A stretch of 28,767 nucleotides of DNA from NCBI GenBank assembly GCA_002085285.1, contig NATK01000002.1, forward strand, positions 1 to 28,767, given 5' to 3'. Position numbers and translations under genes: made by a program. Below, one piece after another: positions 1 to 10,655 of the stretch. The number at the start of each line of letters is the position of its first letter. Within the stretch, counting starts at the first letter, position 1. The DNA is from Candidatus Latescibacteria bacterium 4484_7. GTDB lineage: Bacteria > Krumholzibacteriota > Krumholzibacteriia > Krumholzibacteriales > Krumholzibacteriaceae. A model generated the notes under the pieces. The model made no database searches, was not told the origin of the DNA, and worked only from the letters and a program-made list of their open reading frames with translations.

Positions 1-60
1 TATTATCATAAGTTGAATAGTAGTGGAACTTATTCAATATTTATGCTCTCAAGAGAATAA
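1..60 (+). CDS. 3' end of an upstream (probable cassette) ORF, partial
   Basis: Frame 1 is open from base 1 (YYHKLNSSGTYSIFMLSRE) to TAA at 58-60, just before the first attC-like site. Only 19 codons are visible. Confidence 0.4.
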   Translation, partial: YYHKLNSSGTYSIFMLSRE

Positions 61-83
61 TTATTGTACGACTGAAAAGCTAC

Positions 84-216
84 TGCCGACAATTGTATAT
101 AAGGCATTGGGCGGTAAGTGGTTAAATTGAAAGATATGAACATTAATAAGCGGCATAGTAAATTGAAAGTTAGGTGTTTCAAAACGCCCAACGCCTCATA
201 TACTTGACCGTTATAT
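84..216 (+). repeat. attC-like site 1 (long type, left core box degenerate)
   Basis: Arms 95-113 GTATATAAGGCATTGGGCG and 185-203 CGCCCAACGCCTCATATAC are complementary at 17/19. They are followed by the core GTTATAT (GTTRRRY-like) at 210-216. The left box reads GCCGAC rather than a clean ..AAC. Confidence 0.7.
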
Positions 217-252
217 GAAATTTTGGGGCCTTATAAAATGGAGGCAATAATA

Positions 253-2121
253 ATGAAGCATATTTGTCTGATTTTATCGATATTGGCTCTTATTTCGCCA
301 CTATCAGCACAAGAGGGTCAAAAGGGGATTAAAATAGAGGGTAACCTCTATGAGAATGAAAGCTTAGGGATAAAGGTAAGACTTACTGAAGGAAACTGGT
401 ATTATGAAGATAAAAGCCAGGGCCCGGCGAGCGTCATTGTATTGTCAAATCCAGAAGTGGAAAAATTCAAATTCACGATTGTCATGATGCCGGCAGTGAT
501 AGGAATAAAGACTGCTGAGGATAGAGATGCACAACTTTCCTCATTTTTTGGCGATAAGTATAAGCGGGTAGAACTTGGCAAGGGAGAGATTGATAACAGG
601 GAGACAACAGTCCTTGTTTACGATTTAGTCGTAGCTGATACCTTAACTACCAGGGTTTATACTCATGTACTGGTTGTTGGAGACAATACTTACATGATGC
701 AAATTTCTGGCCCTAAGGATCAATGGGAAGCGAAATACAAACAGTTTGAATCAATATTCAACTATATCTTATTTACCGAAAGAAAGCCGGAAAGAAAGGA
801 AGTTGAAATCAAGAAGGAAGAGGAAGAAAAGCAGGCCGGGTTAACCAAGAATGCAAAAATAATACATCACCTCATAAGGATAGATGTCAATCCTCGTAGC
901 GGTGAGTTCAAGTCATCTGATAAGTTTACCATAAGGATTATAAAAGATAAGATAAAAGAAGTGGAATTCCTCCTATCCGATCTTGTAATTGATTCCATTA
1001 AACTTGGTGATGAAAATTTATCCTTTTCCATGGTAGATTATCAAGAGACGGGTAGAAAAAAGCTCACCGTTAATTTGCCCGCCGACTATGATTCGACTAC
1101 CGAGCTTACCCTGAACTTTTCTGCCCATAAGTCTGATTACCTATTTACTGCGGCGGGTAAGCTGATTGCTGGATATAATATTCTTGGACAGGTAAGGGAG
1201 AAGTCGAGTTATAGTTCCCACGTTTTATATTATCCCGTGGATGAAGATAATGACGCTGCCGGTGAGATATGGATAACCGTGCCATCAGGTTATATCGCTA
1301 TAAGTGTAGGAAAACTTGTTGATGTGGATTCAACCGAAGACAAATCTATATATCATTGGAAAACAGATATTGCTATTCCACGAATATTGCCTTTTGCTTT
1401 CGCTGTTGGTGAATACGAAAAATACTCCGCTACTACAAAGTCAGGCGTCCCAGTAGAAATTTACACTTGGAAAGTGAATGAGGAGCATGCACTCAGGAGG
1501 CTTGATTTGGCTTGTGATATTATCGATTTCTATAATGAAATATTCGGGCAGTTTCCATTTGAAAAGATTGCCATAATACATGTCACCCCAGAAAAGGGTA
1601 TAGCTGGTGTAAGCCTGCCAACTATGATTCTGCTCTCAGACATGTTTTTCACATCCGATTGCTCATATGAAATAATCAAAGAGGATGTGAGAAAATCATT
1701 CCTTGGTCCATTGGTATTGGCTGATGAAATATCACATCAATGGAATGCTTACGCTGTCGCTTTTCCTAATGAACTGGCAGAAGGAATGGCTCAGTATACG
1801 GATGCGTTGTTTGCCGAACATGTAGGTGGAAAACAAGTACTGAAAAATCACATTAAATATCACTCAAGTCTATATAAAGCAGCCATAGAAAACAATCCCG
1901 ATACACCCATAGCATCGCCTGAGATTTACAAGACCCAGGCGTATCAGGGTATTGCCTTCAGTAAGGGAGCGTTGGTGCTTAACATGTTACGCTGTGTTGT
2001 GGGTGATTCCAACTTCTTCGCCGGAATGCGACACATTTTTGAAGAATACTCTGGTAAAAAAGCGGGCTACGATGACATTAAACAGGCGATGGAGAAGTTT
2101 TATGGGGATTCTCTGGGTTAG
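253..2121 (+). CDS. Secreted M1 (gluzincin) aminopeptidase-like protein, N-terminal main part; split by frameshift
   Basis: GGAGG RBS at 240-244 and ATG at 253. Signal peptide MKHICLILSILALISPLSA. M1-like segments: HHLIRIDVNP, FAFAVGEY, FGQFPFEK, DEISHQW..EGMAQY, YQGIAFSKGALVLNMLR. Confidence 0.75.
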   Translation: MKHICLILSILALISPLSAQEGQKGIKIEGNLYENESLGIKVRLTEGNWYYEDKSQGPASVIVLSNPEVEKFKFTIVMMPAVIGIKTAEDRDAQLSSFFGDKYKRVELGKGEIDNRETTVLVYDLVVADTLTTRVYTHVLVVGDNTYMMQISGPKDQWEAKYKQFESIFNYILFTERKPERKEVEIKKEEEEKQAGLTKNAKIIHHLIRIDVNPRSGEFKSSDKFTIRIIKDKIKEVEFLLSDLVIDSIKLGDENLSFSMVDYQETGRKKLTVNLPADYDSTTELTLNFSAHKSDYLFTAAGKLIAGYNILGQVREKSSYSSHVLYYPVDEDNDAAGEIWITVPSGYIAISVGKLVDVDSTEDKSIYHWKTDIAIPRILPFAFAVGEYEKYSATTKSGVPVEIYTWKVNEEHALRRLDLACDIIDFYNEIFGQFPFEKIAIIHVTPEKGIAGVSLPTMILLSDMFFTSDCSYEIIKEDVRKSFLGPLVLADEISHQWNAYAVAFPNELAEGMAQYTDALFAEHVGGKQVLKNHIKYHSSLYKAAIENNPDTPIASPEIYKTQAYQGIAFSKGALVLNMLRCVVGDSNFFAGMRHIFEEYSGKKAGYDDIKQAMEKFYGDSLG

Positions 2122-2363
2122 AAAAAGCCGAAAAACATAAAGATAAATACTTGGTTTCTGTCCTTGTAAAACAGACACAGGGAGGAAAGCCTTTTACGAT
2201 GCCTATAGATATTTCATTCATGTCTGCCGAATGTGAGAAAACCTTTCCCAAAGTAATGGTCAACCAAAAAGAAGAGAGATTGACCTTTGAACTTGACTTT
2301 CGTCCGCAAGATGTTAGGATTGACAAAGAAGGCATGCTGTTAAAAGATGTAGTATATAAATAA
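2118..2363 (+). pseudogene. C-terminal fragment of the M1 peptidase in a shifted frame
   Basis: Frame 3 reads LEKAEKHKDKYLVSVLVKQTQGGKPFTMPIDI...DVRIDKEGMLLK, a typical M1 C-terminal beta domain. The WFFxQW segment expected after DSLG is absent. Confidence 0.6.
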
Positions 2364-2392
2364 TCGCATGTATGTTCGAGCCCCAAAACTTC

Positions 2393-2476
2393 ATATAACA
2401 GCATGTATCTGGTTCGGGCTTTCAGCGCTCATCTAAATCGCCTCCGACGATTTCAGATGCACTCAAACCGTTATAT
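2393..2476 (+). repeat. attC-like site 2
   Basis: ATATAAC at 2393-2399 and GTTATAT at 2470-2476. Arms GCATGTATCTG (2401-2411) and CAGATGCACTC (2454-2464) match at 8/11, with an inner AAATCG/CGATTT hairpin. Geometry is AAC+1 / 5+GTT, the same as site 3. Confidence 0.75.
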
Positions 2477-2550
2477 TCAGTTTGCTCCCTCGCTAAAAAT
2501 CAAAATCATGGGCCCCCGCCTTGTGTCTTAGGTATTTTTCTTGCCACAAT

Positions 2551-2565
2551 CGTAAACTTTATATA
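2551..2565 (+). promoter_or_regulatory. Putative promoter of arsR (BRE/TATA-like CGTAAAC-TTTATATA; weak TTGCCA -35 alternative at 2541)
   Basis: TTTATATA at 2558-2565 is preceded by a purine/A-rich element. It lies ~28 nt before an ATG that has no Shine-Dalgarno sequence. Confidence 0.45.
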
Positions 2566-2589
2566 TATATTGATAGTTATCAATATGCA
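2564..2589. promoter_or_regulatory. ArsR/SmtB-type 12-2-12 operator
   Basis: TATATATTGATA-GT-TATCAATATGCA has a perfect 9-2-9 core and 10/12 overall match. It sits immediately upstream of arsR. Confidence 0.65.
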
Positions 2590-2592
2590 AAT

Positions 2593-2868
2593 ATGAGAGA
2601 ATCACTAAAAATATTCAAGGCCTTATGCGATGAAACTCGGTTAAAAATAGTTGAATTTCTCCTTAGTGGAGAAAAATGTGTTTTTGAAATGGTTCCGTTT
2701 ACAAAAAGAATACAATCAACAGTTTCAGTTCAGTTATCAAAGCTTGAATATTTGGGGATTATTGGATCAAGAAGAGAGGGTAAAAGGATATATTATAAAC
2801 TGACAAACGAGAAAGTGAGAGAAATATTAAGAATACTAAATGAGAGAAACCAGGATAAATATAATTAA
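2593..2868 (+). CDS. ArsR/SmtB family transcriptional regulator
   Basis: IFKALCDETRLKIVEFL..GEKCVFEM..QSTVSVQLSKL..G....RREGKRIYY winged HTH signature. Confidence 0.9.
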   Translation: MRESLKIFKALCDETRLKIVEFLLSGEKCVFEMVPFTKRIQSTVSVQLSKLEYLGIIGSRREGKRIYYKLTNEKVREILRILNERNQDKYN

Positions 2869-2895
2869 AACATCTAAAATATTGGAGGAAGTGCT

Positions 2896-3936
2896 ATGTT
2901 AAGAGATGTAGAATGTAAATGCCAGATTGTTAAGAACTTTGCACCATCCTGGTTTGCAAGCATCATGGGAACGGGAATACTTGCTCTGACTAGCTTACTT
3001 TACTCCCAATATGTTCCTCTCCTGAAAAACCTGGCTTATGTCTTGTTCTACTTTAACATTATTCTTTTCTTTGTCTTATTAATCCCATGGATTCTTAGGT
3101 GGATATTCTTCAGAAAAGAAGCATTAAAAGATTTAGAGCATCCTGTGCTCTCAAATTTCTATGCTACGATAGCGATAGGTATGCTTGTTTTAGCAGCGGA
3201 TTTCATTGTAATTGGTAATAACATTGAGATTGGAAAGGTTTTTTGGTTTATAGGATCACTGGCTACAATATTCTTTAGCATACTCACACCATATTTAATG
3301 TTCAAAGGTGAGCATGTTAAACTTGACCACATAAATCCAGCATGGTTTATTCCACCAGTCGGACTAATTGTGATTCCCATTGCAGGAAGTTTAATTATTC
3401 CACATGTATTAGGAATGGCGCGGCAGTATGTTATATTTCTTAACTATTTTGGATGGGGCTCTGGCTTTTTTATCTATCTCGCTCTATTAGCTATAACAAT
3501 GTATCGTTTTATTCTTCATCATCCTCTACCAAACACTCTCGCTCCAACCATATGGATAAACCTTGGACCCATCGGAGCAGGGACTGTTGCATTGGTTAAC
3601 CTCATCAAAAACTCATCTTTTATAGCAGTGAAAGAACCTTTCTTCGTATTTGGATTTTTGTTCTGGGGGTTTGGTATTTGGTGGGTTATAATAGCTATTG
3701 CAATGACCCTGCACTACATAAAAAGACTGAAGCTTCCCTATGCAATGTCTTGGTGGGCTTTTACATTTCCTCTCGGAGCGTATGTAGCTGCAAGTCATAC
3801 AATCTCGTCATTATTTGAAATTCAACTAATAGATTACGTTGGTTTTGCTTTATATTGGCTTTTAGTTATTTTCTGGGTGGTTACTTTTGTAAAAACTCTT
3901 ATACGTGCATATCATGGGACGCTGTTTAAGGTTTGA
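2896..3936 (+). CDS. TDT (tellurite-resistance/dicarboxylate, SLAC1/TehA-like) transporter
   Basis: GGAGG RBS. FAPSWFASIMGTG, NPAWFIPPVG and PYAMSWWAFTFPLG motifs; about 10 hydrophobic segments. Confidence 0.88.
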   Translation: MLRDVECKCQIVKNFAPSWFASIMGTGILALTSLLYSQYVPLLKNLAYVLFYFNIILFFVLLIPWILRWIFFRKEALKDLEHPVLSNFYATIAIGMLVLAADFIVIGNNIEIGKVFWFIGSLATIFFSILTPYLMFKGEHVKLDHINPAWFIPPVGLIVIPIAGSLIIPHVLGMARQYVIFLNYFGWGSGFFIYLALLAITMYRFILHHPLPNTLAPTIWINLGPIGAGTVALVNLIKNSSFIAVKEPFFVFGFLFWGFGIWWVIIAIAMTLHYIKRLKLPYAMSWWAFTFPLGAYVAASHTISSLFEIQLIDYVGFALYWLLVIFWVVTFVKTLIRAYHGTLFKV

Positions 3937-3998
3937 TGTGATGAAAGTTGACGCTAGACATATGACATTCTGCCCAAAACCTAAGGAGATGAATTTAT

Positions 3999-5773
3999 AT
4001 GTTTGAAAAAATAAGAAAAAGGGATGGAAGAATTGTAAAGTTTGACCCCGAGAGAATTACAAACGCAATTTCTAAAGCAGGTGCAGCAACAGGTGAATTT
4101 GATAGAGATATAGCAAAGAAAGTATATTATTTACAGAGAACAGCACGCAAGAATCAGAGAAATTATATCTAAAGCCAATAACGATCTTGTAGATCAGTAT
4201 CTTAATAAAATAGATTGGGAGGTTAAAGAGAACAGTAATATGTCTTTTTCTTTACAGGGACTTAACAATTATATTTCCTCTAAAGTAAGTAAGATGTATT
4301 GGCTGAATAAAATATATCCAGCAGAGATAAGAAATGCCCATATAGAGGGTGATTTTCATATCCATGATTTGGGTATATTATCTGTTTACTGTGTTGGGTG
4401 GGATTTGTTCGATTTATTATCAGAAGGTTTTAAAGGAGCTGCGGGAAAAATAGAGAGCAAACCTGCAAAGCACTTCAGGAGTGCTTTAGGGCAAATTGTT
4501 AATTTTTTCTATACTCTTCAAGGTGAAGCTGCTGGGGCACAAGCATTTTCCAACTTTGACACTTTCCTTGCCCCATTTATTCGATATGACAATCTATCAT
4601 ATAAAGAGGTTAAACAAGCTTTACAGGAATTTTTATTTAATCTAAATGTCCCCACAAGAGTGGGATTTCAAACCCCTTTTACAAATATAACTTTGGATTT
4701 AAGATCTCTAGAGTATCTCAAAAATCAACCAGTTGTTTTTGGAGGAACGCCTCAGAAGGAAACTTACGGAGATTTCGAAGAGGAAATGATGTTGTTCAAT
4801 AAGGCTTTCTTGGAGGTTATGTTGGAAGGTGATGCAAAAGGCAGAGTTTTTACCTTCCCTATTCCTACATATAACATTACCGGAGATTTTGATTGGGACG
4901 CCGAGTTTTTGAATACGTTATGGGAGATAACTGCAAAATATGGTATTCCATACTTCTCTAATTTTGTTAATTCAGATATGAAACCAGAAGATGCAAGAAG
5001 TATGTGCTGTAGGTTAAGGCTGGACACAAGGAAATTGGAGAAAAGGGGTGGCGGACTATTTGGGGCAAATCCACTTACAGGAAGCATCGGTGTTGTATCA
5101 ATCAACATGCCGAGATTAGGTTATTTCTCAAAGGATGAGAACGAATTTTTTGAAAGATTGGACATGCTGATGCAATTGGCAAAGAATAGTTTAGAGATGA
5201 AGAGAAGAATTCTGGAAAAGCTTACAGGGCAGGGCTTGTATCCTTACACCAAGTACTATTTGAGAAATATTAAAAAACGATTTGGTGCATATTGGAAAAA
5301 TCACTTTTCTACGATAGGGTTGGTTGGATTGAATGAAGCCTGCTTAAATCTTCTGGGGGTGACTATCGGCGACAGAGAGGGTAAAGAATTTGGATTGAAG
5401 GTCTTGGAGTTTATGAAGAATAAACTTATTGAATTCCAGGAGGAGACTGGAAACAATTATAACCTGGAAGCAACCCCTGCTGAGGGGACTTCCTATCGTC
5501 TCGCGATGATAGATAAGAAGAAGTATCCTGACATAGTATGTGCAAATGAGCAAGCATTCAGAAACGGTGCAGAGCCCTTTTATACGAATTCCTCTCAACT
5601 TCCAGTCAATTATACAGATGATATATTTGAGGCTCTTGACCTGTCCGAAGTGCGATGCTACATGTGAGGTGTACTCAAGAGTTGTAGGGTATCTGAGACC
5701 CGTAAATCAATGGAATAACGGGAAAAAGGAAGAATTCAGAATGAGGAATAGTTTTAAGGTGATGACAAAATGA
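3999..5773 (+). pseudogene. nrdD: Anaerobic (class III) ribonucleoside-triphosphate reductase, disrupted in three frames
   Basis: ATP-cone start MFEKIRKRDGRIVKFD at 3999-4172 (RBS AAGGAG at 3983). The core from 4123-5667 has SMCCRLRLD and EATPAEG. The glycyl-radical tail TCPKC..EVYSRVVGYLRP is in a third frame ending at 5773. Confidence 0.88.
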
Positions 5774-6462
5774 AAATCGCCGGTTTTCAGAAATTCTCTT
5801 TGATAGACTACCCAAGTAAAATCAGTGCAATCATCTTTACCCAAGGATGTAATTTCAGATGTCCCTACTGCCATAATCCAGAACTAGTAAATCCGGAACT
5901 ATTTTCAGACACCTTAGATGAAGATTTAATACTTACTTTCTTAAGTAAAAGGATCGGCAAATTAGATGGTGTAGTTATCACGGGAGGGGAACCTCTGCTT
6001 CAGCATGATTTAATAGAGTTTATAAAAAAGGTAAAGGAAATGGGTTATCTTGTAAAACTTGATACAAATGGGAGTTATCCAGAAAATTTGGAGCGATTGT
6101 TAGCTAAAAATCTGATCGATTACATAGCAATGGATATTAAAGCTCCTCTTGAAAAATACCATAATGTTGTGCAGGCAGATGTTTGTACAGAAAAGATAAT
6201 GGAAAGCATTACGATAATTCTAAATAGCAATATAGATTACGAATTTCGAACCACAGTAGTGAAGGATCTCCTAATAGAAGATGATTTAATTTGCATAGCC
6301 AAGTTAATTAGAGGTGCAAAGAGATATGTTTTGCAAAAGTTTGTTATGTCAAAGATATTAGATAAGTCATTTGCCAGTAATGTAAAATGCTTTTCAGAAG
6401 ACGAATTAAATACCATAATAGACAAAGTGAAAAAATATGTCAGCGAATGTATTATGCGATGA
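5770..6462 (+). CDS. nrdG: Anaerobic RNR activating radical SAM enzyme
   Basis: GCNFRCPYCHN CxxxCxxC motif and ITGGEPLLQ. ATGA overlap with the nrdD tail stop. Confidence 0.92.
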   Translation: MKIAGFQKFSLIDYPSKISAIIFTQGCNFRCPYCHNPELVNPELFSDTLDEDLILTFLSKRIGKLDGVVITGGEPLLQHDLIEFIKKVKEMGYLVKLDTNGSYPENLERLLAKNLIDYIAMDIKAPLEKYHNVVQADVCTEKIMESITIILNSNIDYEFRTTVVKDLLIEDDLICIAKLIRGAKRYVLQKFVMSKILDKSFASNVKCFSEDELNTIIDKVKKYVSECIMR

Positions 6463-6525
6463 TTACCTGAGGTTTTGGGCGGAACGCTTCGTCGCTTCGC
6501 TTTTTGTCCTCACTTAGTTTGGGTC

Positions 6526-6604
6526 ATATAACACGGGCTATACGGCTCGTTTCACTTGCCCAAATTTGCTAACGCAAACTTTGTATAGCCCGAATACGTT
6601 AAGT
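6526..6604 (+). repeat. attC-like site 3
   Basis: ATATAAC at 6526-6532 and GTTAAGT at 6598-6604. Perfect 10-bp arms CGGGCTATAC (6534-6543) and GTATAGCCCG (6583-6592), with an inner TTTGC-TAAC-GCAAA hairpin. Confidence 0.78.
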
Positions 6605-6867
6605 GGAACGCCCGAATTGATAAAAACTATATCGAGATTGAGGTGGCCTAATATATGATCAATATAGAGAGAAAAGTAAAGGTAGGTGTAAGATTGCCTT
6701 TGCAGGTTTTATCCTGCTCATAGTCACAAGCGGTTCAGGATGCCAAAACAACAATTATCACCCTACCAAGCCGCAGCAATCACTTTTTCTTCTCCCCGCA
6801 TCGGCACAAATACTTTTTGTTTCTAACGCGGCGCATAGTGTAGCGCGTCTTTCAAATGATAGAATGG

Positions 6868-8427
6868 CTATACCAATGTGTATTTGAACTCGTCCGCGTC
6901 GATTCCGTATTTTTTCATCTTGTACCTCAAAGCACCTCGGCCGAGCCTCAGGAGCCTCGCCGCTTCTGTTACCCGCCCCCCGCTCTTTTCGAGGGCCGCT
7001 ATGATGAGTCCCTTTTCCACCTCGTCTATTGCGATCCCTTCGGGGGGGAAATCGATTCGCACCGTCCCTGCTTCTTTTTCGATGTCGAGAGACGATGTGC
7101 CGACCGAAGTGCCGTTCGGAGTGGTGCCCGAAGTGCCGTTCGGAGTGCCGTCCGGAGCGCCGTTCGGAGTGGTGCCCGAAGCGCCGACGGTTGATTCTAT
7201 AGGCAGGTCTTCGGGCTTTATCTTACCCGACCTGTTCAGAAGCACCGCCCTTTCGATGACGTTTATGAGCTCGCGGATATTCCCCGGCCAATGGTATTCC
7301 TGCAATGCATCGAGTGCTTCTTCCGAGATGGTCACACCTCCCTTGTTCAATCTCGCTGCAAAGCGGCTTACGTATTCGATGGCGATGGGGCGAATGTCTT
7401 CTTTCCTCTCTCTAAGCGGTGGCAGGTTGATCTCGACCACATTGAGTCTGTAGTATAGATCCTCCCTGAAACGGCCCTGGGCCACCTCTTCTTTCAGGTT
7501 TCGGTTTGTCGCCGAGATGATTCTCACGTCCACAGGGAGGAATTCGACACCGCTCACGCGTCTTATGGTCCTCGTATCGAGGAACTTGAGGAGCTTCGCC
7601 TGGAGGGCATAATCTATCTCGGCGATCTCGTCGAGAAATATAGTGCCTCCGTCTGCGACTTCAAAGAGGCCTGCCTTCTCTTCACGAGCATCGGTGAATG
7701 CACCTTTTTCGTGTCCGAAGAACTCGCTCTCCAGGAGATTGCGTGGTATCGCTGCACAGTTGACCTCTACGAAGGGACCGCTGCGACGCGGACTTGCCTC
7801 GTGTATCGCCTTTGCGAGGGAGCCCTTGCCCGTTCCGCATTCACCCGTTATTATGACAGACGTGCATTCACTTTCAGCGACCTTTAGCGCGAGTTCCTTG
7901 ACCTCCATGATCTTCGGGCTTTCGCCGATTATCTGATCGAAGCCTTCGTCAATCTCCTTATTGGGATTGAGGCTCTGTTTCAGCCGCCTCTTTCCGAGCC
8001 CGGTTGCGATGCGGGACAGCATCTCTTCGAGGTCCTTGTATGAGTAAGGTTTGAAAAGAATATGCCTTGCACCGAGCTCTATGCCCAGTTTGTCACCGCC
8101 GTGAAATTCTCCGGGGATGATAAGGATGAGCTGAACCTTCTTGTTCTTCCTGAGGTACATGGACAGGGTGTCTTTTTCTTTTTGAAAGGCCTCCTCGGTT
8201 TCCGGCACGGAATAGATCAGAAGATGCTTGTTCCCGTTCTTATCACCTGCTGCGGCCTTTTTCCCACTGCGAGCGCTGACAGGGTTGGCATTCCGCCGCG
8301 CTGCCCGTATCAACTCACCGGCATCCGCGTAGGAATCCACACTCCATCCGTGTTCGCCGAAGAACAGCTCGAGCGAGCTGCGCTCATCGTCGTCTGCGGC
8401 TACTATATTCAGTCCGAGGGATATCAT
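6868..8427 (-). CDS. Sigma54-dependent enhancer-binding protein (NtrC family) with degenerate receiver domain
   Basis: Walker A GECGTGK, NCAAIP, GAFTDA, IFLDEI, RFREDLYYRLNV, WPGNIREL and a C-terminal Fis-type HTH. The ORF is open from TTG 8448; ATG 8427 is preferred as start. Confidence 0.9.
   Translation of the reverse strand: MISLGLNIVAADDDERSSLELFFGEHGWSVDSYADAGELIRAARRNANPVSARSGKKAAAGDKNGNKHLLIYSVPETEEAFQKEKDTLSMYLRKNKKVQLILIIPGEFHGGDKLGIELGARHILFKPYSYKDLEEMLSRIATGLGKRRLKQSLNPNKEIDEGFDQIIGESPKIMEVKELALKVAESECTSVIITGECGTGKGSLAKAIHEASPRRSGPFVEVNCAAIPRNLLESEFFGHEKGAFTDAREEKAGLFEVADGGTIFLDEIAEIDYALQAKLLKFLDTRTIRRVSGVEFLPVDVRIISATNRNLKEEVAQGRFREDLYYRLNVVEINLPPLRERKEDIRPIAIEYVSRFAARLNKGGVTISEEALDALQEYHWPGNIRELINVIERAVLLNRSGKIKPEDLPIESTVGASGTTPNGAPDGTPNGTSGTTPNGTSVGTSSLDIEKEAGTVRIDFPPEGIAIDEVEKGLIIAALEKSGGRVTEAARLLRLGRGALRYKMKKYGIDADEFKYTLV
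7097..7190. repeat. 12-bp imperfect tandem repeat (about 7.8 units) inside the activator gene
   Basis: Units such as GTGCCGTTCGGA and GTGGTGCCCGAA. They encode GTTPNGAPDGTPNGTSGTTPNGTS between the AAA+ domain and the HTH. Confidence 0.9.
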
Positions 8428-8443
8428 ACCGTGTGTAACTTTG

Positions 8444-8459
8444 TGCAAGATATGTGCCT
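8444..8459 (-). promoter_or_regulatory. Putative sigma54 -24/-12 promoter
   Basis: The minus strand reads AGGCAC-ATATC-TTGCA, with exact GG-N10-GC spacing, just upstream of the activator gene. Confidence 0.45.
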
Positions 8460-8528
8460 TGATGATCCCTGAAAAGATGAAACATTTTTTGCTGCTTCGT
8501 CTGGCAAGTAAGTTGTGCTTGTTCGTAA

Positions 8529-8660
8529 AGGGCGGTCATAGGGCTTGTAATCGGTTATGTCAACGAAAGATACGATTCGCTCTGGCCGTGGCGGATAATC
8601 CGTTTTACCAACAGCGTTTCATCGCTCATAGCGCTCACGCTATATTTTAGGTTGCACTGA
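8529..8660 (+). pseudogene. Possible 3' relic of a CPBP/Abi (CAAX protease-like) membrane protein
   Basis: Reads RAVIGLVIGYVNERYDSLWPWRIIRFTNSVSSLIALTLYF, resembling the G..GY..ER..SLW.....H...N motif. The H and N positions are each one base change away. Confidence 0.3.
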
Positions 8661-8749
8661 ACGAATGGCTGGTTATAAGCTCATCGCTGAAATCGGTAAT
8701 CTCGATCTATTTACACCGTGCGGTTGGAGTGTATGAGACGGGTATATCA

Positions 8750-8911
8750 ATGAATAATCAAGTCAATGAATTTGCCCAATTATCCCCTGTCGTTCAGGCT
8801 TTTCTTGCAACAATCGTCACATGGCTTGTTACCGTTCTCGGAGCGGCGGTCGTCTTTTTCAGAAAAGAATTGAGCCGAAGGTTGCTCGATGCCTCCCGGC
8901 AATGCACATAA
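8750..8911 (+). pseudogene. 5' stub of a ZIP (GufA/ZupT-like) metal transporter
   Basis: SPVVQAFLATIVTWLVTVLGAAVVFFRKELSRRLLDA matches the start of GufA-type ZIP proteins, then loses similarity and stops. Confidence 0.65.
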
Positions 8912-8982
8912 ATGACTGGTGTTTCGATCATATGAATAAACGAGTGCTTCTGGTTTCCGAATCGGATTTGCTGGTATAACGA

Positions 8983-9705
8983 TTGAAACTCGAAGAAGTA
9001 AATAAACAAATCAAAGTATGCCGAAGGTGCAGACTCTTCGAGACGAGGGCAAATGCTCTGTGCGGTGAAGGGCCGCGCGATGCGAGGATCATGCTTGTTG
9101 CCCAGGCTCCGGGCGAGAATGAGGACAGAGAAGGCAGAATGTTCATCGGGCCGTCTGGAAAGGTGCTGGATGAGCTGTTGAGGATGGCCGGTGTCTGTAG
9201 AGATGAGATATACATAACGAATCTGATCAAGTGCATGCTGCCACGTTACAGAAAGCCGAAGCAGGATGAGATAGTTGCCTGCAGCAAGTACCTTGACGAG
9301 GAAATAGACGTTATAAATCCCTCTGTACTGGCTCCTCTCGGATATTATGCCTCGAGGTATATTTTTATGAAATATTCACTCGATTTCCCGGACCGCGAAG
9401 AGGTTTATACGATATATGGGAGATTATTTCTAACATCCAACGGTAAAGATGGCGGCGCAGCGAAGAAGATCTATCCTCTCAGGCATCCGGCGGCTCTTCT
9501 TTACAACGAGGGATTGAGTGAAGAAATGGAGCGCAACTATCATAAATTGGGGATCTTGCTCCACGATTGCGCATGGTTCAAGCGATGCCCGGAGAGAAGG
9601 AGATTGCAAGAGGTATCAATGGACAATGAATGGCTGGAACTGTATTGTAAAGGTGACTGGGAAAGTTGCCCATATTTTGCAGTGGAAGGAGGAAGGGAAA
9701 GATGA
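8983..9705 (+). CDS. Family-4-type uracil-DNA glycosylase with C-terminal Cys-rich extension
   Basis: CRRC, GEG..ARIMLVAQAPG..ED..G..FIGPSG, YITNLIKC, HPAALL. TTG start. Confidence 0.88.
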   Translation: MKLEEVNKQIKVCRRCRLFETRANALCGEGPRDARIMLVAQAPGENEDREGRMFIGPSGKVLDELLRMAGVCRDEIYITNLIKCMLPRYRKPKQDEIVACSKYLDEEIDVINPSVLAPLGYYASRYIFMKYSLDFPDREEVYTIYGRLFLTSNGKDGGAAKKIYPLRHPAALLYNEGLSEEMERNYHKLGILLHDCAWFKRCPERRRLQEVSMDNEWLELYCKGDWESCPYFAVEGGRER

Positions 9706-10655
9706 ATGTTTTCGGCCCGGTTCCTTCGAGGCGTTTGGGCAAGAGCCTCGGCATCAACAACATTCCCGCAAAGATATGCACCTACTCATGCGTTTACTGC
9801 CAGATCGGACGCTCTCTCAAGATGGTGGGGGAGAGGGAAGAGTATTATTCTCCGCAAATGCTTTTTGCAGAAATAAAAGACAAGGTCAAGAGGGCCCGCG
9901 AGCACAACGAGTCGATCGACTATCTCACCTTCGTGCCCGACGGTGAGCCGACACTGGACAAGAGTATTGGAGAGCTGATAGAGATGTTGAAGCCGCTCGA
10001 CATAAAGGTCGCCGTTATCACGAATGCCAGTCTTATCGATTTGCCCGATGTGAGGGACGATCTTTTCAAGGCGGATTGGGTATCGCTCAAGGTTGACACG
10101 GTGGATGAAGCGATATGGAGAAAGATTGATAGGCCTCACAGGAAGCTCCGACTCGATTCGATATTGAAGGGGATAAAGATATTTGCCGGTGAGTTCGAGG
10201 GGCACCTCGCAACGGAGACGATGCTCGTCAGGGACTTGAACGACCGGTTGGAAAATATTCGTGATGTGGCCGGCTTTATCAAGGAACTCAATGTTTCGAC
10301 CGCCTATATCGGTGTACCTACGAGGCCGCCGGCGGAGAAATGGGTATTGCCGCCTGAAGAATCCGCCTTGAACACGGCGTATCACATCTTCGTCGAGGAC
10401 CAGATATACGTCGAGTACCTCATAGGTTACGAGGGGAATCAATTTGCTTTTACCGGCGATGTGGAGGAGGACATATTGAGCACCACAGCCGTCCATCCAA
10501 TGAGGGAGGACGCTTTGAATGCCCTTTTGGAAAAGGCGGACAGCGATTTTTCGCTGGTTGAAAGGCTCGTAGCCGAAGGAAAGATTGTTGTTTCGGAATA
10601 CGGCGGAAACAGGTACTATCTTCGAAGGCTCACATTGAAAGATGCGGACCGTTAG
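9702..10655 (+). CDS. Radical SAM protein (COG0731-like Fe-S oxidoreductase)
   Basis: FGPVPSRRLGKSLG, CTYSCVYC and DGEPTL motifs. ATG 9702 overlaps the UDG stop (ATGA). Confidence 0.88.
   Translation: MNVFGPVPSRRLGKSLGINNIPAKICTYSCVYCQIGRSLKMVGEREEYYSPQMLFAEIKDKVKRAREHNESIDYLTFVPDGEPTLDKSIGELIEMLKPLDIKVAVITNASLIDLPDVRDDLFKADWVSLKVDTVDEAIWRKIDRPHRKLRLDSILKGIKIFAGEFEGHLATETMLVRDLNDRLENIRDVAGFIKELNVSTAYIGVPTRPPAEKWVLPPEESALNTAYHIFVEDQIYVEYLIGYEGNQFAFTGDVEEDILSTTAVHPMREDALNALLEKADSDFSLVERLVAEGKIVVSEYGGNRYYLRRLTLKDADR

What the first reader, a model, noticed from the sequence alone, without database searches (positions are those of the whole stretch)
2551..3936. arsR-TDT cassette with an archaeal-style promoter inside a bacterial region: possible cross-domain cassette
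Seen: CGTAAAC-TTTATATA sits ~28 nt upstream of the arsR ATG, which lacks any Shine-Dalgarno, while the downstream TDT gene has GGAGG. The operator lies between the TATA-like box and the start. Established: BRE-TATA followed by a leaderless or short-leader first gene is the typical archaeal layout, and integrons have been reported in archaea. Inference: this cassette may be of archaeal origin, whereas the host region is bacterial (sigma54 activator).
Basis: inference. Interest (0 to 1): 0.7.

Follow-up and report, generated by a model that had tools for sequence, protein, structure and literature searches.

The report
Archaeal-type arsR–transporter cassette in a bacterium
A 1.5-kb two-gene metal(loid)-resistance module, still carrying the promoter layout typical of archaea, sits inside a foreign low-GC gene-cassette array of a bacterial genome, a concrete case of recent gene traffic between the two domains, but of a kind already reported.

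Summary
CGTAAAC-TTTATATA (2551-2565) lies 27 nt before the arsR ATG (2593), which has no Shine-Dalgarno. A perfect 9+2+9 palindrome (2567-2586) lies between them, and GGAGG (2884-2888) precedes the TDT gene.

The mobile unit is 2473-3959. One metagenome contig joins 2472 directly to 3960, an empty-site allele. DNA homology (80-86%) to 11 other loci with unrelated flanks covers only this stretch.

The closest copies lie mostly in DPANN archaeal MAGs, one beside TFB and deoxyhypusine synthase. All 13 named ArsR relatives are archaeal. The TDT falls in a 14-row clade (SH-aLRT 94) that I count as 10 archaeal, 3 bacterial and the window.

The 42-nt BRE-TATA-operator block is as conserved as the coding sequence (0.80 against 0.38 further upstream).

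The host is bacterial: RpoN present, no TFB, GC 51% against 36% for the module. An independent 79-kb contig appears to link nrdG of the low-GC block to the same core genes. Half of the relatives carry an integron integrase.

In bacterial contexts the regulatory half decays: C31F here, an arsR pseudogene in L008, arsR absent in L009 and L012.

No transcription start was mapped, and this copy has no attC of its own. Earlier notes of this scan on the same window-6604 an integron-type array. I consulted none on other DNA.

The parts
2380..2476 (+). attC-like site of the upstream (M1 peptidase) cassette. It begins GCCCCAAAACTTCATATAAC and ends with the core GTTATAT (2470-2476), the insertion point.
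   Evidence: Bottom strand folds with z -2.5. 2380-2399 is the reverse complement of 210-229 (read). Homology to L007 and L008 starts exactly at 2469/2470.
2473..2473 (.). Left junction of the inserted segment. An ATAT microhomology lets it lie anywhere in 2473-2477.
   Evidence: X1 contig joins 2472 to 3960, skipping 1487 nt, with 62 nt on the shorter side and 4 ambiguous letters (table 5). X2 record 10 spans 2439-2960 across this junction (table 8).
2477..2550 (+). Left extension, shared only with the three other copies that begin at a GTTAYAT core (L007, L008, L016a). It holds the -35-like TTGCCA (2541-2546).
2551..2557 (+). BRE-like element CGTAAAC directly upstream of the TATA box.
   Evidence: Conserved as (G/C)(T/C)AAA(C/T) in 11 copies.
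2558..2565 (+). TATA box TTTATATA. 27 nt separate it from the ATG.
   Evidence: Genes of the archaeal contigs L010 and L014 show TATA-like boxes 27-31 nt before their ATG without a Shine-Dalgarno.
2567..2586 (+). Palindromic operator ATATTGATA-GT-TATCAATAT, the presumed ArsR binding site, between the TATA box and the start.
   Evidence: The right half-site TATCAATAT is nearly invariant in 11 copies.
2588..2590 (+). Predicted archaeal transcription start (C-A, about 23-24 nt after the TATA box), giving a leader of 3-5 nt.
   Evidence: Inference from archaeal promoter geometry. Not measured.
2593..2868 (+). arsR, 91 aa, ArsR/SmtB metalloregulator. The sensor motif reads GEKCVFEM where all 13 aligned relatives have GEKCVCEI.
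   Evidence: The exact protein occurs on 5 contigs.
2884..2888 (+). Shine-Dalgarno GGAGG for the second gene.
   Evidence: Retained in L007, L008, L009, L010 and L012.
2896..3936 (+). TDT-family transporter (TehA/Mae1/SLAC1), 346 aa, intact.
   Evidence: 84-91% identical homologues.
3941..3959 (+). Remnant (MKVDAR...) of the start of a second arsR-type gene that follows TDT in the Thermoplasmata locus L020. It is cut off at the right junction.
   Evidence: The L020 protein is an ArsR/SmtB regulator.
3959..3960 (.). Right junction (...GCTAGAC|ATATGACATTC). No attC-like hairpin lies in the last 100 nt of the segment. The nrdDG cassette begins here.
   Evidence: joint. (3860-3965 folds with z -0.2). 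X3 loose end ...CAAACGTTATATGACATTC (table 7).
6515..6603 (+). attC-like site closing the array (CATATAAC-ACGGGCTATAC...GTATAGCCCG-AATAC-GTTAAGT), homologous to the site just before the arsR cassette in L008.
   Evidence: z -3.7.. X1 contig spans 6527-7821 into the sigma-54 activator gene.

Best explanation
Window 2473-3959 is a horizontally acquired arsR-TDT metal(loid)-response module of the type that circulates among DPANN and other archaea of hydrothermal sediments. It was inserted, most likely by integron-type recombination, at the GTTATAT core of an attC-like site, between an M1-peptidase cassette and an nrdDG cassette. These cassettes form a low-GC array that adjoins the core genome of a sigma-54-bearing bacterium.

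The module brought its native archaeal control region: BRE plus TATA box, an ArsR palindrome between the TATA box and the start, an essentially leaderless arsR, and a Shine-Dalgarno-led second gene.

In an archaeon (inferred), TBP and TFB would bind TATA and BRE, and an ArsR dimer on the palindrome would block RNA polymerase recruitment. As(III)/Sb(III)-type ligands bound at the Cys-X-Cys site would release ArsR, and the bicistronic mRNA would yield ArsR and the TDT anion transporter.

In the present host no TFB was found. Transcription can therefore only come from read-through or from chance use of TTGCCA-N17-TATATA by sigma-70. The sensor cysteine is lost here (C31F), which fits relaxed selection or a non-inducible repressor.

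The 3' recombination site of the cassette has been deleted, which fuses it to nrdDG.

Shown: anatomy, boundaries, the empty-site allele, nearest relatives, conservation, host identity. Inferred: promoter function, ligand, direction of transfer, recombination mechanism.
For: Boundaries and mobility:
- DNA homology to 11 loci covers only 2470-3951, and the flanks are unrelated.
- An empty-site contig joins 2472 to 3960 at depth 3.9. The filled form has depth 8.9, and their sum equals the M1-peptidase depth of 12.8.

Archaeal affinity:
- All 13 named ArsR relatives are archaeal.
- TDT clade of 14 rows, SH-aLRT 94, counted as 10 archaeal, 3 bacterial and the window after correcting L011.
- L010 carries the module between deoxyhypusine synthase and polyprenyl synthetase, near TFB. 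TFB is present in the MAGs of L007 and L011.

Promoter:
- The 42-nt BRE-TATA-operator block has identity 0.80 against 0.38 upstream.
- The same TATA-at-minus-28, leaderless layout is seen at other genes of L010 and L014 but not at the window's core genes.
- Deltaproteobacteria-labelled arsR-TDT pairs have Shine-Dalgarno leaders instead.

Host:
- RpoN present, no TFB.
- GC3 0.31 against 0.615 for the core; RSCU correlation -0.19 with the core and 0.73-0.78 with archaeal flanks.
- TDT and the M1 peptidase are at most 31% identical in 40 relatives.

Linkage:
- The exact NrdG and eight core proteins are each recorded with a longest contig of 79,365 nt, which I take to be one independent contig.
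- A Logan contig spans 6527-7821.

Integron context:
- IntI scores over the cut-off in 20 of 41 relatives.
- attC-like hairpins fold with z -2.3 to -3.7.
- The GTTATAT core starts the cassette in the window, L007 and L008, and GTTACAT in L016.

Decay in bacterial contexts:
- C31F here.
- arsR in L008 has ATA for ATG and an in-frame TAA; arsR is absent in L009 and L012, while TDT stays intact.
Against: - No transcription start or expression data exist, so the promoter reading rests on sequence and conservation.
- The TATA run also resembles a -10 box.
- This copy has no attC at its 3' end, and the right junction reads GACATAT, not GTTATAT.
- No IntI was found in the 62%-complete MAG or in the MAGs of L007, L008, L010, L012 and L014.
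- The hairpins upstream of L007 and downstream of L008 are not significant.
- In L010, L013 and L014 the module lies without a GTTATAT boundary or the left extension, and no attC-like site was seen in the short intergenic DNA read at L010. Integron recombination is therefore not its only route.
- The tree is unrooted and the labels come from MAG bins; at least one label (L011) was wrong.
- The join between nrdG and the core passes through a repeat that is very abundant in the metagenome (depth 350-600 at 6347-6680).
Confidence: 0.65

Rival explanations
1. Assembly chimera. The low-GC block 1-6500 belongs to another organism (an archaeon or a low-GC bacterium) and was joined to the bacterial contig at the repeated attC-like sequence near 6466-6527, so no bacterium carries the module.
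For: - The 6347-6680 bin has depth 350-600 in X1, and Logan contigs break at 6524-6527.
- The window copy lacks 55 nt after 2116 relative to the run contigs, which shows that this assembly contains errors.
- This is one of only two low-GC stretches in the MAG, and both lie at contig ends.
Against: - The exact NrdG and eight of the window's core proteins are each recorded with a longest contig of 79,365 nt, apparently one independent contig.
- The X1 contig 6527-7821 carries the attC-like site into the sigma-54 activator gene.
- Unique parts of the block and of the core have similar low depth in four runs: 8.9 against 7.2-9.0 in X1, and 6.4 against 6.6-8.1 in X2.
- Relatives of the host commonly carry IntI.
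- L008 shows the same cassette on a contig with an AcrB-type pump.
Confidence: 0.08
2. Bacterial module with an ordinary AT-rich sigma-70 promoter. The TATA run is a -10 box, TTGCCA the -35, and ArsR represses by overlapping them. The DPANN copies would be the recipients, not the donors.
For: - TTGCCA-N17-TATATA is present.
- Three of the four cassette-form copies have a -35-like hexamer at the same place (TTGCAA, TTTACA, TTGACA).
- The tree is unrooted and mixes the domains at least 12 times.
- TDT homologues at 60-75% identity are common in Thermotogota and other bacteria.
Against: - The consensus scan reports no + strand promoter there.
- The -35-like hexamer is missing from the seven copies without the left extension, while BRE, TATA and their spacing to the ATG are kept.
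- There is no Shine-Dalgarno, and a sigma-70 start would leave only a 15-17 nt leader.
- Named ArsR relatives are all archaeal.
- The module sits among archaeal housekeeping genes in L010.
- The regulatory half decays in the bacterial copies.
Confidence: 0.1
3. The module is archaeal, but it was not moved by an integron. It entered by illegitimate or microhomology-mediated recombination (ATAT at both junctions), or by an unknown site-specific system that targets GTTATAT.
For: - ATAT microhomology of 4 nt at the joint.
- No attC at the 3' end.
- The right junction is not GTT.
- No IntI in the MAGs concerned.
- Archaeal chromosomal copies lack a GTTATAT boundary and the left extension.
Against: - The left boundary is the same GTTATAT core in three unrelated contexts, and GTTACAT in a fourth. 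An inverted-repeat site precedes it in the window and L008 and, by eye, in L016; the L007 site does not fold significantly.
- The neighbouring cassettes have long complementary ends typical of attC.
- A later deletion of the cassette's own attC explains the right junction as well.
- IntI is frequent in the host's family.
Confidence: 0.2

Closest known systems
Integron gene cassettes and attC clusters, including archaeal integrons (Ghaly et al. 2022, Sci Adv, PMC9668308)
   Same: A discrete unit found behind different neighbours. It begins at a GTT-core. The flanking cassettes end in imperfect inverted-repeat sites. The array is compositionally foreign. The paper reports attCs of Nanoarchaeota and other archaea that are 95-100% identical to attCs in bacterial integrons.
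   Different: This copy has no attC of its own, and no integrase is on the contig or in the MAG. The cassette is large (two genes plus a control region). A word search of that paper found no mention of TATA boxes and no mention of promoters inside cassettes.
ArsR/SmtB repressors of ars operons (plasmid R773 ArsR type; from my own knowledge)
   Same: Small winged-helix repressor (HTH_5, NF033788). It is autoregulated, being the first gene of its operon. It has a palindromic operator. Relatives carry a Cys-Val-Cys site at the position of the As(III)/Sb(III) site.
   Different: The window protein reads Cys-Val-Phe. The operator lies between an archaeal TATA box and the start, not over a -35/-10 pair. 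The partner gene is a TDT transporter, not ArsB or Acr3, although L015 adds an Acr3-like gene (TIGR00832 at 84 bits, below its cut-off of 283).
TDT family transporters: TehA, Mae1, Ssu1, SLAC1 (TIGR00816, PF03595)
   Same: Full-length match above the curated cut-off.
   Different: Only 52 bits to the TehA equivalog (cut-off 342), so it is not TehA itself. The substrate is unknown.
Archaeal repressors that bind just downstream of the TATA box and block polymerase recruitment (MDR1, Phr, LrpA; from my own knowledge)
   Same: The operator is placed between the TATA box and the start.
   Different: Binding and mechanism were not tested here.
Integron cassettes with internal promoters in Vibrio chromosomal integrons (bioRxiv 10.1101/2023.11.21.568050, abstract seen)
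   Same: A cassette that brings its own promoter instead of relying on Pc.
   Different: Those promoters are bacterial. Here the promoter has archaeal architecture and lies in a bacterial array.

Membership tests
Archaeal BRE/TATA promoter with leaderless first gene | TATA box of consensus TTTAWATA about 26 nt upstream of the start, preceded by a purine/A-rich BRE | tested here: met
   TTTATATA 2558-2565 preceded by CGTAAAC. Both are conserved in 11 copies with fixed spacing to the ATG.
Archaeal BRE/TATA promoter with leaderless first gene | Transcription start 0-5 nt before the ATG, and no Shine-Dalgarno | not testable with these tools
   No Shine-Dalgarno is seen. The start at about 2589 is predicted only.
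Archaeal BRE/TATA promoter with leaderless first gene | Host encodes TBP/TFB able to read it | tested here: not met
   TFB (PF00382) was not found in G000, which is 62% complete, and RpoN is present. TFB is present in the MAGs of L007 and L011 and on the L010 contig. The element is therefore archaeal by design but cannot work as such in this host.
Integron gene cassette | attC recombination site (imperfect inverted repeat from R'' to R') at the 3' end of the cassette | tested here: not met
   3860-3965 has no hairpin (z -0.2). The right junction reads GACATAT.
Integron gene cassette | Cassette boundary at the GTTRRRY core of the preceding attC | tested here: met
   Homology to L007 and L008 starts at GTTATAT 2470, and L016a has GTTACAT. 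The core departs from GTTRRRY at one position.
Integron gene cassette | Neighbouring cassettes separated by attC-like sites | tested here: met
   Sites at about 92-216, 2380-2476 and 6515-6603 fold with z -2.3, -2.5 and -3.7. Cassette ends are complementary over 19 of 20 nt. No attC covariance model was available.
Integron gene cassette | Integron integrase IntI in the genome | tested here: inconclusive
   None over the cut-off in G000, which is 62% complete. 20 of 41 relatives have one at 300-486 bits.
Integron gene cassette | Independent presence or absence at the same site | tested here: met
   An empty-site contig joins 2472 to 3960 in run X1.
ArsR/SmtB metalloregulator (As(III)-sensing type) | Winged-helix HTH_5 domain | tested here: met
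   PF01022 at 40 bits; NF033788 at 78 bits against a cut-off of 55.
ArsR/SmtB metalloregulator (As(III)-sensing type) | Cys-X-Cys metalloid site in the helix before the recognition helix | tested here: not met
   The window has GEKCVFEM. All 13 aligned relatives have GEKCVCEI.
TDT transporter family (TIGR00816) | Full-length match above the curated cut-off | tested here: met
   335.5 bits against a cut-off of 237; residues 15-341 cover profile positions 1-320 of 320.

The most novel reading that the evidence does not exclude
The cassette form of the module carries a promoter that works in both domains. The archaeal TATA box doubles as a bacterial -10, and the 75-nt left extension supplies a -35. 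That extension is found only in the copies that begin at a GTTAYAT core, and it reads TTGCCA, TTGCAA, TTTACA or TTGACA about 17 nt upstream. The near-leaderless arsR can be translated by either kind of ribosome. Such a cassette would be expressed wherever an integron drops it, which would explain its spread at 80-90% identity across at least five DPANN phyla and several bacterial phyla in hydrothermal sediments.
Probability: 0.15. Interest if true: 0.8.

Novelty: new member of a known kind. Interest (0 to 1): 0.55.

Why it matters
Cross-domain transfer through integron-type cassettes was proposed in 2022 mainly from shared attC sites and from recombination assays in E. coli. Here a specific cassette can be followed.

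- An archaeal operon, with its archaeal control region intact, lies in a bacterial array.
- An empty-site allele is present in the same community.
- Sister copies lie in true archaeal chromosomes.
- Other bacterial copies have a decayed or lost regulator and promoter, while the transporter stays intact.

This gives a testable picture of what happens to foreign transcription signals after a jump between domains. It also offers a small construct (1.5 kb) with which promoter function can be compared in bacterial and archaeal systems.

Tried and rejected
The 79-kb contig and the contexts of the 90-91% TDT hits could therefore not be fetched.
- Rfam found nothing in 1-7200 at E <= 1.
- The module has no relative in IMG/VR viral contigs or in PLSDB plasmids.
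- blastn-short with the attC-like sites and the left extension found only the window itself. This was a sensitivity limit, not evidence of absence.
- My own strict R''/R' plus stem scan found no site even at the candidates, so I dropped it.
- I fetched DNA beside intI in 14 relatives. I saw no clear low-GC arrays or shared attC types by GC profile, repeats or ORFs. Whether the window's attC type is native to the lineage stays open.
- The sigma-70 consensus scan found no + strand site before arsR.
- The hairpins upstream of L007's cassette and downstream of L008's cassette were not better than shuffles (z +0.4 and -1.2 to -1.3).
- NrdD homologues gave no usable taxonomic signal: names were mixed between archaea and bacteria, and many hits carry inteins.
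- I did not run a structure prediction, a complex prediction or the representative-protein search, because no open question depended on them.
Full report
**Observation.**
- TTGCCA lies at 2541-2546, CGTAAAC at 2551-2557 and TTTATATA at 2558-2565.
- A perfect 9+2+9 palindrome, ATATTGATA-GT-TATCAATAT, lies at 2567-2586. Its 16-mer core is unique in the window.
- The arsR ATG is at 2593, with no purine-rich ribosome-binding site in the 27 nt after the TATA box.
- GGAGG lies at 2884-2888, 7 nt before the ATG of the second gene.
- arsR (2593-2868, 91 aa) matches HTH_5 and NF033788. The second gene (2896-3936, 346 aa) matches PF03595 and TIGR00816 above the curated cut-offs.
- The TATA 8-mer alone is weak evidence. 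It occurs four times in the window, three of them in the AT-rich first 6.5 kb.

**Setting.**
- The window is one contig of a 1.53-Mb, 62%-complete MAG of 51% GC.
- Bases 1-6500 have 33-41% GC and the rest 46-58%.
- The low-GC block encodes, all on the + strand, an M1-type peptidase, arsR, TDT, an nrdD in three pieces and nrdG. It is followed by a sigma-54 activator on the other strand.
- The MAG encodes RpoN, and TFB was not found. The host is a bacterium.
- TDT and the peptidase have no close counterpart in 40 relatives (at most 31% identity).
- Codon use of arsR+TDT (GC3 0.31) is unlike the core (GC3 0.615, RSCU correlation -0.19). It resembles genes on DPANN contigs (0.73-0.78).

**The unit and its mobility.**
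- A scan of one genome per species found TDT at 79-89% amino-acid identity in MAGs labelled Woese-, Nano-, Aenigmat-, Micr- and Iainarchaeota and 'uncultured archaeon'. It also found it in bins labelled Gammaproteobacteria, Hippea and Cloacimonadota. Several record names point to hydrothermal sediment samples (Guaymas in the scaffold names).
- At the DNA level only 2470-3951 is shared (80-86%). Every flank differs.
- Logan contigs of four public metagenome runs were laid on 1-10000. One X1 contig joins 2472 directly to 3960, skipping 1487 nt, with 62 nt on the shorter side and a 4-nt ATAT ambiguity. That is the site without the module.
- The depth of this contig (3.9) plus that of the filled form (8.9) equals the depth of the peptidase gene (12.8).
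- An X2 contig (2439-2960) crosses the left junction.
- An X3 contig reads ...CAAACGTTATATGACATTC before nrdD. This again looks like the nrdDG cassette directly behind a GTTATAT core.

**Cassette context.**
- The left boundary is the core GTTATAT. The same core opens the homologous segment in L007 and L008, and GTTACAT does so in L016.
- Before that core lie inverted-repeat sites. 2380-2476 folds with z -2.5, about 92-216 with z -2.3, and 6515-6603 with z -3.7.
- The last site is homologous to the site that precedes the arsR cassette in L008.
- Twenty of 41 relatives carry an integron integrase above the TIGR02249 cut-off. None was found in this incomplete MAG.
- The last 100 nt of the arsR-TDT segment have no hairpin (z -0.2), and the right junction reads GACATAT.
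- The segment ends in the first six codons of a second arsR-type gene, which is complete behind TDT in the Thermoplasmata locus L020 and runs longer in L007 and L008.
- The simplest history is insertion at the attC core, followed by a deletion that removed the cassette's own attC and fused it to nrdDG. This agrees with the earlier follow-up on nrdDG. It is an inference.

**Is the block really in the bacterium?**
- The join passes through a sequence that is very abundant in the metagenome (depth 350-600 at 6347-6680), and Logan contigs break at 6524-6527. A chimera therefore had to be considered.
- Against it, an X1 contig runs from 6527 to 7821 without a mismatch. It carries the attC-like site into the sigma-54 activator gene.
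- Depths of unique parts of the block and of the core are similar in the runs.
- The exact NrdG protein and eight proteins of the core (two exact, six at 90% or more) are each recorded with a longest contig of 79,365 nt, in ENA among other sources. I read this as one independent contig that links the two parts.
- The exact ArsR and TDT are not recorded on a contig of that length. That contig may hold the empty site or a variant.

**Archaeal affinity.**
- Among the 120 best ArsR hits (68-86% identity), 13 carry a name, and all 13 are archaeal.
- In a maximum-likelihood tree of 74 TDT proteins the window lies in a 14-row clade (SH-aLRT 94). The tool's labels give 9 archaeal rows, 4 bacterial rows and the window. 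The family as a whole needs at least 12 changes of domain label.
- I checked the labels where I could. L010 carries the module between deoxyhypusine synthase and polyprenyl synthetase, 3 kb from a TFB gene. The MAGs of L007 and L011 encode TFB, so L011, filed as 'bacterium', is archaeal. That makes the clade 10 archaeal and 3 bacterial. The MAGs of L008, L009 and L012 do not encode TFB. L008 has an AcrB-type pump on the same contig.
- The 90%-identity cluster of the TDT holds members named Diapherotrites, Thermoplasmata and Deltaproteobacteria.

**The promoter.**
- Eleven copies were aligned. They share (C)GTAAAC-TTTATATA-TATT-nAyA-nn-TATCAATAT-n5-ATG, with spacing to the ATG fixed within 2 nt.
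- Pairwise identity is 0.80 from BRE to -1, the same as in the first codons. It is 0.38-0.41 further upstream.
- On the archaeal contigs L010 and L014 several other genes show TATA-like boxes 27-31 nt before their ATG and no Shine-Dalgarno. The core genes of the window do not.
- The more distant arsR-TDT pairs in Deltaproteobacteria-labelled contigs have clear Shine-Dalgarno leaders and no such box.
- The sigma-70 scan finds nothing on the + strand before arsR. TTGCCA-N17-TATATA is a weak candidate, and the -35-like hexamer exists only in the four copies that have the left extension.
- With the TATA box at 2558-2565, archaeal geometry predicts a start at about 2588-2590 and a leader of 3-5 nt. 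An ArsR dimer on 2567-2586 would then block polymerase recruitment. None of this has been measured.

**State of the genes.**
- All 13 aligned relatives have GEKCVCEI. The window has GEKCVFEM and also Gly for a nearly invariant Glu at position 58. The exact protein is on five contigs, so this is not a single assembly error.
- In L008 (bacterial context) arsR has ATA for ATG, Tyr for the first Cys, and an in-frame TAA. In L009 and L012 arsR and the promoter are absent, and TDT follows unrelated DNA with its Shine-Dalgarno. TDT is full-length in all of them.
- In archaeal contexts ArsR is intact. In L015, L016 and L054 it is fused to a two-cluster ferredoxin-like domain. In L015 the operon continues with an MrpORP/FeMo-cofactor-like protein, TDT, and an Acr3-like transporter that scores below its cut-off.
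- This context, together with the Cys-X-Cys site, points to an arsenite/antimonite-type or related oxyanion response. The substrate of the TDT protein is unknown.

**Comparison with what is known.**
- Integrons in archaea, and attC sites shared at 95-100% identity between archaeal and bacterial genomes, were reported by Ghaly et al. 2022 (PMC9668308). A word search of that paper found no mention of TATA boxes, and its two mentions of 'promoter' concern PBAD, not cassettes.
- A full-text search for integron cassettes together with archaeal promoters found nothing relevant.
- The finding is therefore a new, well-documented member of a known kind, not a new kind. As an integron cassette it fails one defining feature, its own attC. 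It is better described as a cassette remnant fixed in an array.

**Verdict.** Confidence is 0.65 for the full reading: archaeal-type module, archaeal promoter by design, in a bacterial cassette array, entered by integron-type recombination. The main rivals are a non-integron route (0.2), a bacterial sigma-70 reading with the opposite direction of transfer (0.1) and a chimeric contig (0.08).

Noticed in passing
window 2116-2117: Contigs of runs X1 and X2 carry 55 extra letters between 2116 and 2117. With them the two peptidase frames (223-2121 and 2151-2363) become one. The apparent frameshift of the M1 peptidase is therefore a deletion or an assembly error of this contig, not a property of the population.
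   Followed up: partly
window 3999-5773: nrdD reads in three pieces: ATP cone 3999-4172, core 4240-5667, C-terminus 5540-5773. Its best homologues often carry inteins (PF14528, PF14890). An X2 contig skips one base at 5640-5642, and an X1 contig has an indel at 4291-4294. Some of the breaks may be assembly or strain artefacts.
   Followed up: no
window 7104 (sigma-54 activator, 6868-8448, - strand): X1 and X2 contigs lack 24 nt here, inside a Gly/Thr/Pro/Asn-rich repeat (GTTPNGAPDGTPNGTSGTTPNG). This is length variation of a linker repeat between strains.
   Followed up: no
G000 contig C14, bases 1-2000: This is the only other low-GC stretch (30-35%) of the MAG, again at a contig end, with small ORFs on the - strand. 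It may be another piece of a cassette array or island.
   Followed up: no
L015:3730-4326, L016:4234-4800, L054:5367-5921: In three DPANN-labelled loci ArsR is fused to a C-terminal domain with two CxxCxxCxxxC-type motifs (ferredoxin-like), giving 184-198 aa. In L015 the operon is arsR-Fdx, a FeMo-cofactor/MrpORP-like protein, TDT and an Acr3-like gene. In L016 and L054 a radical SAM/SPASM gene lies upstream.
   Followed up: partly
L016:2447-2602: A second copy of the left extension plus promoter, with only the first eight arsR codons, sits in front of the radical SAM/SPASM gene. The promoter module has been reused with another gene.
   Followed up: no
L011 (record titled 'bacterium isolate AUK088'): The MAG behind this locus encodes TFB (76 bits). 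The bin is archaeal despite its title, a reminder that domain labels of these MAGs need checking.
   Followed up: partly
window 6463-6530; L008:2590-2620; L007:1290-1410; L016:2420-2445: A short motif rich in CTTCGC (for example GGGCGGAACGCTTCGTCGCTTCGC in the window and GGGAGCGAACTCTTCGTCGCTAAC in L008) recurs just before or within the attC-like sites. Its role is unknown.
   Followed up: no
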